Shown in pieces: positions 29,829 to 30,498 of a stretch of DNA of 64,000 nt. The stretch's first letter is position 1. Every line of letters starts with the position of its first letter. The notes beneath the pieces were generated by a model that ran no database searches, was not told where the DNA came from, and saw only the letters and a list, made by a program, of their open reading frames with translations. The stretch is from Escherichia coli (GTDB lineage: Bacteria; Pseudomonadota; Gammaproteobacteria; Enterobacterales; Enterobacteriaceae): the NCBI RefSeq assembly GCF_017348835.2, contig NZ_CP071375.1; one strand, 5' to 3'. The position numbers and the translations under genes are program-made.

Positions 29829-30498
29829 TACCACCACCTTACATATATTACTCATTAATGTATGTGCGAAAATTACGCCGGAAAATTAATTAACGAAAGC
29901 GGATTTTTGCATGTTGTTTTGTTTTTGCGAGACGTTCTCCAGAAATAATAAGAGCGTTGCAGTTGTTTCATTTGTTACTCAAAAATGGTTTAGTTATCGC
30001 CCAGGATGAGTTATGGGTGCTACGAATATATTATATTCAGGGATATTTATTTGCATAATCTGAATGGTGTAGCCGAAAAACGTCAGCATCCTAACAGCAC
30101 CAGGATTTAAGGTGAAATTAATCTTCCATCACAGACCTGTCAGTACTGCCACCAACCGGTCTTTACTTGCTCATCGTTATAATTTTGTTGGTAACAGTTC
30201 GGGAAACAAGGAATTCCTTCCGGCCCCCCCGGTATCATCCGATAGCATTGACGTCAATCATCGGCTCGACGGTGAGTTTTTTTAATCGCATCATAGGGTG
30301 GCAACGTTCAGCACGATACGGGTCATAACAAAACTCCTGAGCAGCGGCACTATGCCGCTTTCACAGGAGTTCTGAATGCTGGTGCTTTCTGTATGGCTTC
30401 GCCATGACCCTCGCGGCTAAGTGCCTGCACACTTCTCTCTATATTTGATTTTTGCAATGCATTGGCCGAATTCTGATAATCCTAATGAGTTTTACTCT

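What the first reader, a model, noticed from the sequence alone, without database searches (positions are those of the whole stretch)
30300..30400. Nested hairpin downstream of the phosphatase gene
On the plus strand, AACTCCTGAGCAGCGGCACTATGCCGCTTTCACAGGAGTT forms an 8-bp outer stem (AACTCCTG/CAGGAGTT) enclosing a smaller hairpin (GCGGCA.../...TGCCGC), in the 3' flank of the minus-strand phosphatase gene. No clear U-tract follows, so it is not a typical intrinsic terminator; it could be a processing site or a small structured RNA belonging to the island.
Basis: seen in the sequence. Interest (0 to 1): 0.25.

Follow-up and report, generated by a model that had tools for sequence, protein, structure and literature searches.

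The report
Leftover translational-control hairpin of a deleted gene
The hairpin is real, but it is not part of the "phosphatase" island: it is the surviving leader of a small neighbouring gene that this strain has lost, and in intact relatives across many bacteria the same kind of hairpin hides that gene's ribosome-binding site behind a short upstream reading frame.

Summary
The nested hairpin exists exactly as described (window 30332-30371) and folds far better than shuffled sequence on both strands. All neighbouring genes lie on the minus strand. On that strand its 3' arm CAGGAGUU carries a Shine-Dalgarno AGGAG 7 nt before an ATG (30326). Its 5' arm is the end of a 14-codon upstream ORF (30405->30361) whose UGA stop lies in the internal loop.

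In E. coli genomes that keep the downstream DNA, that ATG opens a 70-aa basic, Cys-rich protein (phrog_4499, no Pfam family), followed by a 92-aa partner. The window has a frameshift and a 392-nt deletion, so the hairpin is a relic.

About half to two thirds of 80 homologous loci, from Enterobacterales to Burkholderiales, have an equivalent SD-sequestering nested hairpin. Their sequences are unrelated, one clade shows covariation, and a frame-specific upstream ORF usually reads into the hairpin. No Rfam family matches.

The most likely design is SD masking relieved by translation of the leader ORF; this is inferred, not shown. That tail is not conserved in the family. The hairpin lies outside the phosphatase-type insertion.

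The parts
30332..30371 (-). Nested hairpin. RNA on the minus strand: AACUCCUG-UGAAA-GCGGCA-UAG-UGCCGC-UGCU-CAGGAGUU
   Evidence: Sequence. Folds at -22.8 kcal/mol, z -5.5. Unique in the window.
30364..30371 (-). Outer 5' arm, the anti-SD (AACUCCUG). It also forms the last codons (GAA CUC CUG) of the upstream ORF.
30332..30339 (-). Outer 3' arm CAGGAGUU. It contains the Shine-Dalgarno AGGAG (30338->30334), 7 nt before the ATG at 30326.
   Evidence: P(SD paired to a far-upstream partner) = 1.0, reached by 0 of 60 shuffles.
30344..30358 (-). Inner GC-rich hairpin GCGGCA-UAG-UGCCGC
   Evidence: An equivalent inner hairpin is seen in homologous leaders.
30361..30405 (-). Upstream (leader) ORF MAKPYRKHQHSELL*. 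ATG at 30405-30403; UGA stop at 30363-30361, in the 5' internal loop of the hairpin.
   Evidence: Homologous leader ORFs occur in other loci (MTYRKQRHSELM*, MRKIIYSELPLRR..., MTDKRDQRHSERM...).
30291..30326 (-). Truncated relic of the small Cys-rich protein gene: ATG, 11 codons, then a stop. A 1-nt deletion at 30318/30317 shifts the frame.
   Evidence: Alignments to intact loci.
30170..30276 (-). Relic of the 3' end of the 92-aa partner gene. It is fused at the 30277|30276 junction to codon ~17 of the small gene, through a 392-nt deletion relative to L005 3376->2985.
   Evidence: intact genes in L005.
30409..30432 (-). Remnant resembling the last codons of nadS. This marks the edge of the variable cargo: sequence shared with nadS-type genomes starts here.
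30499..32397 (-). It is the cargo variant present in this strain.
   Evidence: No significant family or PDB hit. Split and annotated 'transposase' or pseudogene in related genomes.
29610..29855 (-). Context: yiiE (ribbon-helix-helix protein), the next intact gene downstream on the minus strand.

Best explanation
The hairpin is the E. coli version of a translational leader belonging to the gene downstream of it on the minus strand, not to the 632-aa ORF upstream. In intact loci the outer stem pairs an anti-SD sequence, located at the end of or inside a short upstream ORF, with the Shine-Dalgarno of a ~70-aa basic Cys-rich protein gene (phrog_4499 family). The stem is closed over a GC-rich inner hairpin. 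The structure is too stable (-18 to -45 kcal/mol) to open by itself. The main gene is therefore expected to be translated only when a ribosome translating the leader ORF unwinds the 5' arm. That is translational coupling or attenuation of the cat/cmlA/ermC or MS2 type. In this window the leader ORF and hairpin are intact, but the controlled gene is dead: it has a frameshift and a 392-nt deletion that also removed most of the 92-aa partner gene. The hairpin is therefore an evolutionary relic. At most it now acts as a weak terminator or stabiliser for read-through transcripts. Shown: the hairpin's identity, position, conservation and covariation; the frame-specific leader ORF; and the decay of the gene. 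Inferred: the unmasking mechanism.
For: 1. The SD AGGAG sits in the 3' arm, 7 nt before the ATG.
2. In E. coli FDAARGOS_1267 and Escherichia sp. the same ATG opens an intact 70-aa ORF followed by a 92-aa ORF.
3. The protein family is real and broad: 122 tblastn-confirmed loci among GTDB species representatives, about 996 clusters at 50% identity, and 38 of 38 members match phrog_4499.
4. 53 of 80 loci have a single hairpin domain of at least 13 bp and at most -15 kcal/mol ending within 12 nt of the start.
5. P(SD sequestered) is at least 0.8 in 41 of 81 family starts, against 36 of 323 background GGAG-N5-9-ATG sites.
6. The leader window is in the lowest 1% of MFE of its own locus in 26 of 80 loci.
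7. Covariation in the betaproteobacterial clade: 15 of 22 pairs have double changes, 82.7% of cells are paired against 68.6% in shuffles (0 of 500 reach it), and slid controls give 40-57%. A MAFFT-only alignment also shows it.
8. A model built from 10 seeds finds 8 non-seed leaders at the exact expected position, E <= 8e-9.
9. An ATG-started upstream ORF reading past the main start occurs in frame +2 in 37 of 80 loci, against 5 and 6 in the other two frames. Its first 9 codons are conserved through synonymous changes, including CGT<->AGA.
10. Most loci without the hairpin examined have an upstream ORF ending within 16 nt of the start, which suggests direct coupling.
11. The decay in the window is shown.
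Against: There is no expression, 5'-end or ribosome-profiling data. The unmasking mechanism is inference from anatomy. One covariance model does not bridge the clades: the beta-clade model does not detect the gamma-clade leaders. Unity across clades therefore rests on position and architecture, not on RNA homology. About a third of the loci show no such hairpin. In the E. coli class, variation is not compensatory: single mismatches occur in the outer stem of the copies that have intact genes. Several leader ORFs lack an obvious SD or a canonical start codon. The E. coli copy, unlike the rest, has a U-rich tail, so it may have been co-opted as a terminator.
Confidence: 0.6

Rival explanations
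1. It is a Rho-independent terminator ending transcription of the upstream operon (the 632-aa ORF here, higB-like/nadS in other E. coli) and insulating yiiE-yiiF. This does not exclude a leader origin.
For: On the minus strand a -21 to -23 kcal/mol stem is followed by UUUUGUUAU. The d'Aubenton-Carafa-type discriminant, with the formula recalled from memory, gives +11 if the stem is taken as CUCCUG...CAGGAG. The hairpin lies about 45 nt after the nadS stop in nadS-type genomes. It has been retained in roughly 2100 genomes that lost the downstream genes.
Against: The score is -9.7 if the terminal A-U pairs are counted as stem. The simple terminator scan did not call it. None of 53 homologous hairpins scores positive and only 2 of 53 have at least 5 U in the next 8 nt. 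The close relative in Klebsiella spallanzanii has GAUGAAAUG after the stem. Retention may simply reflect shared descent.
Confidence: 0.3
2. It is an RNase III (or other endonuclease) processing site. Cleavage in the internal loop or upper stem would separate the anti-SD from the SD and activate translation, as in the lambda N leader or T7 R1.1-type signals.
For: In most clades the architecture is two coaxial stems separated by an asymmetric internal loop, 20-29 bp in total. The stability is too high for spontaneous opening. The comparison with lambda N and T7 is from general knowledge and was not tested here.
Against: The window copy has only 14-15 bp. This model does not explain the frame-specific leader ORF. 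No data on cleavage exist.
Confidence: 0.12
3. It is an operator hairpin bound by a protein, for example the very basic Cys-rich product itself, giving autogenous translational repression.
For: The product is small, R/K/H-rich and carries an invariant CSCWMCG motif. Inner-loop sequences are conserved within clades, for example CGAAGG.
Against: Loop and stem sequences differ completely between clades while the protein motif is invariant. The AF2 model has only moderate confidence and has no structural neighbours. There is no evidence of RNA binding.
Confidence: 0.12
4. It works by fold-back inhibition, as in IS10 or IS200. The native promoter would fire between the arms, so only read-through transcripts from foreign upstream genes carry the anti-SD and are silenced.
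For: The gene sits next to highly variable upstream cargo, including gyrA, lacZ, toxin-antitoxin pairs, integrases and R-M genes. Insulation from outside transcription would be useful there. The IS10/IS200 precedent is from general knowledge.
Against: The inner region is a GC-rich hairpin, not promoter-like. No promoter-like site was found. The conserved leader ORF starts upstream of the 5' arm, which implies that native transcripts include it.
Confidence: 0.1
5. It is a chance palindrome with no past or present function.
For: The window copy controls no intact gene.
Against: z = -5.5 with 0 of 200 shuffles folding as well. It is orthologous to leaders of intact genes. The architecture recurs across phyla with covariation.
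Confidence: 0.02

Closest known systems
Translation-attenuation leaders of cat-86, cmlA and ermC (general knowledge, not tested here)
   Same: A short leader ORF whose codons form the 5' arm of a hairpin, with the SD of the downstream gene in the 3' arm. A ribosome in the leader opens the structure. The window's 14-codon leader ends right at the 5' arm.
   Different: There is no resistance gene and no evidence of drug- or peptide-dependent stalling. In most clades the leader ORF reads through the whole hairpin and overlaps the main ORF in frame +2. There is no sequence or Rfam relationship.
Structure-mediated translational coupling (MS2 coat to replicase/lysis, rpmI-rplT, mok-hok)
   Same: The downstream SD is masked by pairing with upstream coding sequence, and translation of the upstream frame is needed to unmask it. 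As with mok/hok, the upstream frame overlaps the main start.
   Different: The product is basic and Cys-rich, not a hydrophobic toxin. No antisense RNA gene or promoter was detected. Membership in any of these systems is not supported.
Rho-independent terminators
   Same: A GC-rich stem followed by a U-rich tract on the transcribed strand, downstream of an operon. This applies to the E. coli copy only.
   Different: The stem is nested, with 5- and 4-nt internal loops. The score is borderline. The U-tract is absent in 51 of 53 homologous hairpins. The 3' arm is a functional-looking SD for the next ORF.
IS10 / IS200 fold-back inhibition and SD-occluding stem-loops (general knowledge)
   Same: A hairpin occludes the RBS of a small selfish or mobile gene that lies next to foreign transcription units.
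   Different: There is no transposase and there are no terminal inverted repeats. The leader ORF argues that the anti-SD is part of the native transcript.

Membership tests
Intrinsic (Rho-independent) terminator | Stable GC-rich stem-loop on the transcribed strand | tested here: met
   -22.8 kcal/mol on the minus strand
Intrinsic (Rho-independent) terminator | U-tract immediately 3' of the stem | tested here: inconclusive
   UUUUGUUAU follows, with two of the U able to pair into the stem. The discriminant is +11 or -9.7 depending on where the stem is taken to end. The consensus scan did not call it.
Intrinsic (Rho-independent) terminator | The feature is kept in homologous copies | tested here: not met
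   0 of 53 homologous hairpins score positive; 2 of 53 have at least 5 U in 8 nt.
SD-sequestering leader with leader ORF (translational coupling/attenuation) | SD of the downstream ORF lies in the 3' arm, at correct spacing to a start codon | tested here: met
   AGGAG is 7 nt before the ATG at 30326. Pairing probability is 1.0, reached by 0 of 60 shuffles.
SD-sequestering leader with leader ORF (translational coupling/attenuation) | A leader ORF overlaps the 5' arm | tested here: met
   The uORF 30405->30361 ends with UGA directly after the 5' arm. A frame +2 uORF occurs in 37 of 80 loci, against 5 and 6 in the other frames.
SD-sequestering leader with leader ORF (translational coupling/attenuation) | The structure is conserved by compensatory change | tested here: met
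   15 of 22 pairs have double changes, and 0 of 500 shuffles reach the observed values in the beta clade. Across clades the evidence is architecture only. Variation within the E. coli class is not compensatory.
SD-sequestering leader with leader ORF (translational coupling/attenuation) | An intact regulated gene lies downstream | tested here: not met
   The window copy has a frameshift and a 392-nt deletion. The gene pair segment is present in 1271 of 5426 E. coli genomes.
SD-sequestering leader with leader ORF (translational coupling/attenuation) | Translation of the main ORF depends on leader translation or stalling | not testable with these tools
   Needs reporter fusions or toeprinting.
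Any Rfam 15 family | Covariance-model match | tested here: not met
   No hit at the site in the window at E <= 10, in 20 loci at gathering score, or in 6 class representatives at E <= 1.
REP/BIME-type dispersed palindromes | Many copies per genome | tested here: not met
   One copy in the window. Median of 1 place per E. coli genome, maximum 2.
RNA thermometer (ROSE, fourU) | A weak, mismatch-rich SD helix able to melt at 37-42 C | tested here: not met
   Domain energies are -18 to -45 kcal/mol. No ROSE or fourU match at the site.
RNase III processing signal (T7 R1.1 / lambda N leader type) | About 20 bp of coaxial duplex with an internal loop, and cleavage | not testable with these tools
   The architecture is compatible in most clades (20-29 bp). 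The window copy has only 14-15 bp. Cleavage is unknown.
hok/mok-type type I toxin-antitoxin | A small hydrophobic toxin plus a cis-antisense RNA | tested here: not met
   The product is basic and Cys-rich. No promoter-like site on the opposite strand near the leader.

The most novel reading that the evidence does not exclude
The hairpin plus leader ORF is an instance of an undescribed, widely distributed translational switch. It is spread from Gamma- and Betaproteobacteria to scattered other phyla, and the protein family has about 1000 clusters. It controls phrog_4499-type small Cys-rich proteins. These genes sit at the fixed edge of variable-cargo hot spots in genomic islands. The E. coli fabY-yiiE site, with at least four alternative contents, is one example. 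The leader peptide motif RK..[HY]SE[LY] could be a regulatory (arrest) peptide.
Probability: 0.4. Interest if true: 0.55.

Novelty: new member of a known kind. Interest (0 to 1): 0.35.

Why it matters
For this window the result is mostly a clarification. The hairpin is not an RNA of the phosphatase-type island. It is a fossil of the neighbouring cassette, and at best a weak terminator. More broadly, following it uncovered three things. First, an unannotated small-gene pair: the 70-aa ORF is not annotated in the RefSeq record examined (L005). Second, a conserved upstream ORF. Third, an SD-masking RNA structure that is in no RNA family database. Together they give an experimental handle on a protein family of unknown function found in phages and genomic islands, and a sequence marker for a recombination hot spot between fabY and yiiE in E. 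coli.

Tried and rejected
1. Rfam scans of the window and of 20 + 6 related loci found nothing at the site.
2. A single cross-clade alignment or model failed. MAFFT puts the outer stems out of register. The beta-clade covariance model does not find gamma-clade leaders even with filters off.
3. Assigning a function to the small protein failed: no hit in Pfam, NCBIfam, PADLOC or PDB sequence searches. Foldseek of a moderate AF2 model (pLDDT 74) gave no significant match. Only phrog_4499, of unknown function, matched.
4. Phage genomes hold only 16 weak, partial tblastn hits, mostly in jumbo Klebsiella phages.
5. The 'plasmid' hits are mislabelled chromosomes, so the cassette is not plasmid-borne.
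6. Literature searches for yiiE/yiiF, CSCWMCG and phrog_4499 found nothing relevant.
7. The upstream neighbour is not a conserved partner. Upstream genes are unrelated to one another (gyrA, lacZ, AMP-ligase, integrase, two toxin-antitoxin types, Dabb).
8. The 92-aa partner was found in only 9 of 80 loci by single-sequence phmmer, so it is not a universal partner.
10. The dispersed-repeat and RNA-thermometer readings were rejected (see the membership table).

Full report
**Observation.** The + strand of the window reads AACTCCTGAGCAGCGGCACTATGCCGCTTTCACAGGAGTT at 30332-30371. It has an exact 8-bp outer stem enclosing a 6-7-bp GC-rich hairpin. As RNA the 40-mer folds at -21.4 kcal/mol on the + strand and -22.8 kcal/mol on the - strand. 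The z-scores are -5.4 and -5.5, and 0 of 200 dinucleotide shuffles fold as well. It is unique in the window at up to 3 mismatches. No Rfam family matches it at E <= 10.

**Strand and neighbours.** Every neighbouring gene is on the minus strand (annotation):
- dtd (34150-33713)
- fabY/yiiD (33716-32727)
- a 632-aa ORF with a CX5R motif (32397-30499)
- the hairpin
- yiiE (29855-29610)

The minus strand is therefore the relevant one. On that strand the stem is followed by UUUUGUUAUG. It is also a start codon 7 nt after an AGGAG that forms the core of the 3' arm.

**The locus is a hot spot, and the hairpin is outside the 'island'.** Parts of window 29850-30520 occur in 5408 of 5426 complete E. coli genomes. 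The hairpin region itself occurs in 3369 of 5426, at one place per genome as a rule. The content between fabY and the hairpin differs between genomes:
- the 632-aa ORF, intact here and split or annotated 'transposase' in F2_81 and O157 TR01;
- an alpha/beta hydrolase plus a higB-like/nadS toxin-antitoxin pair;
- three unrelated ORFs on the other strand;
- almost nothing, in K-12, which also lacks the hairpin.

Homology between the window and nadS-type genomes begins at about window 30432 and includes a remnant of the last nadS codons. The hairpin therefore belongs to the conserved flank, not to the phosphatase-type insertion.

**What the hairpin precedes.** In E. coli FDAARGOS_1267 (L005) the ATG after the hairpin opens an unannotated 70-aa ORF, MTRNRAERRHHMVRLKK...CSCWMCGHRR.... 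A 92-aa ORF follows it. The same pair is called as genes in other Escherichia contigs.

The window has a 1-nt deletion in codon 4. It also lacks 392 nt (L005 3376->2985), so codon ~17 of the small gene is fused to the tail of the partner gene at 30277|30276. The undeleted segment is present in 1271 of 5426 genomes. About 2100 genomes, including O157:H7 and this window's lineage, therefore carry the hairpin next to the relic.

**The protein family.**
- The 70-aa protein has no Pfam, NCBIfam, PADLOC or PDB match.
- All 38 tested members match phrog_4499, a family of unknown function.
- A profile search finds 996 clusters at 50% identity.
- A scan of GTDB species representatives gave 122 confirmed loci, of which 80 were kept (L010-L089). 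They come from Enterobacterales, Chromatiales, Burkholderiales, Nitrosomonadales, Rhodocyclales, Methylobacterium and scattered other phyla.
- The invariant residues include CSCWMCG.
- Neighbouring genes are integrases, R-M subunits, toxin-antitoxin pairs, SRAP, and even gyrA or lacZ. These are island-like and highly variable contexts.

**The leader structure recurs.** MFE folds of the 80-90 nt before each start codon show the same design in most loci:
- an outer stem of 7-11 bp whose 3' arm holds the SD (GGAG, GAGG or GGGG);
- internal loops;
- a GC-rich inner hairpin;
- a start codon 5-9 nt after the stem.

The sequences are completely different between clades. Quantitatively:
- 53 of 80 loci pass a strict filter: a single hairpin domain of at least 13 bp and at most -15 kcal/mol, ending within 12 nt of the start.
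- The leader window is in the lowest 1% of MFE of its own locus in 26 of 80 loci, and in the lowest 5% in 36 of 80.
- The probability that the SD pairs with a partner at least 15 nt upstream is >= 0.8 in 41 of 81 starts. For the window it is 1.0, reached by 0 of 60 shuffles. The same threshold is met by 36 of 323 (11%) background GGAG-N5-9-ATG sites.

**Covariation.** Covariation was tested in the betaproteobacterial clade.
- A MAFFT-only alignment already shows CG<->GC swaps in 9 versus 9 sequences.
- A covariance model built from 10 seeds finds 8 non-seed leaders (Massilia, Azoarcus) at the exact expected positions with E <= 8e-9.
- On that alignment 15 of 22 pairs carry double changes, and 82.7% of cells are paired against 68.6% in shuffles (0 of 500 shuffles reach it). 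Slid-register controls give 40-57%. This alignment was fitted to the model, so the counts lean towards the structure.

There is a caveat. This model does not detect the gammaproteobacterial leaders, and MAFFT cannot register the outer stems across clades. Cross-clade unity therefore rests on position and architecture.

**A leader ORF.** Upstream of the hairpin there is a short ORF that runs into it. Examples are:
- Pantoea: MRKILHSEYPFRRSHEGVAAP...
- Pectobacterium and Klebsiella indica: MRKIIYSELP[LF]RR...
- Massilia: MKIYRWTSYSI.IPGGN.AAGV...
- Nitrosomonadales and Rhodocyclales: ...IAEF.LIYRFTGFFLR.AGPIPGAGRNQEK...
- a metagenomic relative (L009): MTDKRDQRHSERMCARH...
- the E. coli class: M(A)KPYRKHQHSELL* or MTYRKQRHSELM*

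In the E. coli class the stop is a UGA where L009 has UGC, and it lies in the 5' internal loop directly after the anti-SD arm.

An ATG-started ORF that begins at -110 to -45 and stays open past the main start occurs in frame +2 in 37 of 80 loci. It occurs in only 5 and 6 loci in the other two frames. Between the Pantoea and Pectobacterium classes the first nine codons differ by 4 synonymous and 3 conservative changes, including Arg CGT<->AGA. Codons inside the hairpin change mostly non-synonymously, 3:10. The N-terminus therefore looks peptide-constrained, and the interior looks RNA-constrained.

Most of the loci without a hairpin examined have an upstream ORF ending within 16 nt of the start. 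That suggests direct coupling instead.

In the window the leader ORF is intact (30405->30361). In CUWW11, another relic lineage, an in-frame TAG interrupts it.

**Mechanism (inferred).** The stems are too stable (-18 to -45 kcal/mol) to be thermometers or to open spontaneously. The SD is the only masked initiation element. The anti-SD lies inside a conserved leader ORF. The simplest reading is translational coupling or attenuation: a ribosome translating, or terminating in, the leader ORF melts the outer stem and exposes the SD of the main gene. This is the logic of the cat/cmlA/ermC leaders, of MS2 coat-replicase coupling, and of mok-hok. Those comparisons come from general knowledge and are not shown here. 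Rivals that remain open are RNase III activation, autogenous repression by the basic product, and fold-back inhibition of read-through transcripts.

**Terminator question.** I used the d'Aubenton-Carafa discriminant with the formula recalled from memory. The window copy scores +11 if the stem is trimmed to CUCCUG...CAGGAG, and -9.7 if the terminal A-U pairs count as stem. None of 53 homologous hairpins scores positive, and only 2 have at least 5 U in the next 8 nt. Termination is thus not the conserved role. In E. coli the relic may still act as a weak terminator between the cargo and yiiE.

**Comparison and novelty.** No Rfam family matched, and no paper in the searchable library mentions the motif or the protein family. 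The mechanism class is well known. This particular leader and its gene family appear to be undescribed. The instance in this window is a non-functional remnant.

**Verdict.** The feature is a relic of an SD-sequestering leader with a leader ORF. Confidence in that identity is about 0.9, and in the proposed unmasking mechanism about 0.5. Interest is modest (0.35), most of it from the family-wide motif rather than from the window copy.

Noticed in passing
window 26414-29855: Downstream of yiiE the window does not continue with yiiF-fdhE as in reference E. coli. Instead it continues with an IS3-family element (orfA 28986-29312, orfB 28099-28986, both on the minus strand), then a truncated GPH-family (sugar:cation symporter) transporter ORF (27173-28051, probably yihO or yihP) and an OmpL-like ORF. 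This suggests an IS-mediated rearrangement.
   Followed up: no
window 30499-32397 (-): The 632-aa 'phosphatase' ORF is intact here. In F2_81 and O157 TR01 it is split into a 'transposase' CDS and a pseudogene. It has a CKSAKDR (CX5R) motif but no significant Pfam, NCBIfam, PADLOC or PDB sequence match.
   Followed up: partly
window 30321-30330 with 30402-30411 (-): In a 126-nt fold the leader-ORF start region (GGGUCAUGGC) pairs with the main start region (GUUAUGACCC), enclosing the whole leader (-50.4 kcal/mol, z -4.4). By eye, the nadS-type sequence does not appear able to form this helix; it was not folded.
   Followed up: no
L005 ~3376-3388 (-); window 30277-30288: An A8 run (TTAAAAAAAATC) in codons 15-17 of the small gene is where many database variants appear to be frameshifted; some appear to return to frame before the Cys motif. 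The window's deletion junction lies at this run.
   Followed up: no
L054 3140-3222 (+): A Proteo-phage-1 RNA (RF03044, 50.2 bits) lies about 420 nt downstream of the small gene in a Nitrosomonadales MAG.
   Followed up: no
L025 4252-4324 (-): A ROSE_2 RNA thermometer (RF01832, 74 bits) lies in the Huaxiibacter locus. It is unrelated to the leader.
   Followed up: no
L006 281-1546 (-): A third cargo variant at the fabY-yiiE site contains a 421-aa ORF made of about eight tandem ~50-aa repeats (...NSANSTDGDCLVGLISAAHQACW...).
   Followed up: no
window 30258-30284 (+): A terminator-like site on the + strand (TCATCGGCTCGACGGTGA followed by GTTTTTTTAA) sits at the deletion junction. Its T-run is the complement of the small gene's A-run, so it is probably fortuitous.
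   Followed up: no
L003 ~3040 (-): In CUWW11 (nadS type, also a deletion relic) an in-frame TAG interrupts the leader ORF (MVMPYRKH*), and the inner stem has an insertion with a G-U pair. This is consistent with decay after loss of the main gene.
   Followed up: partly
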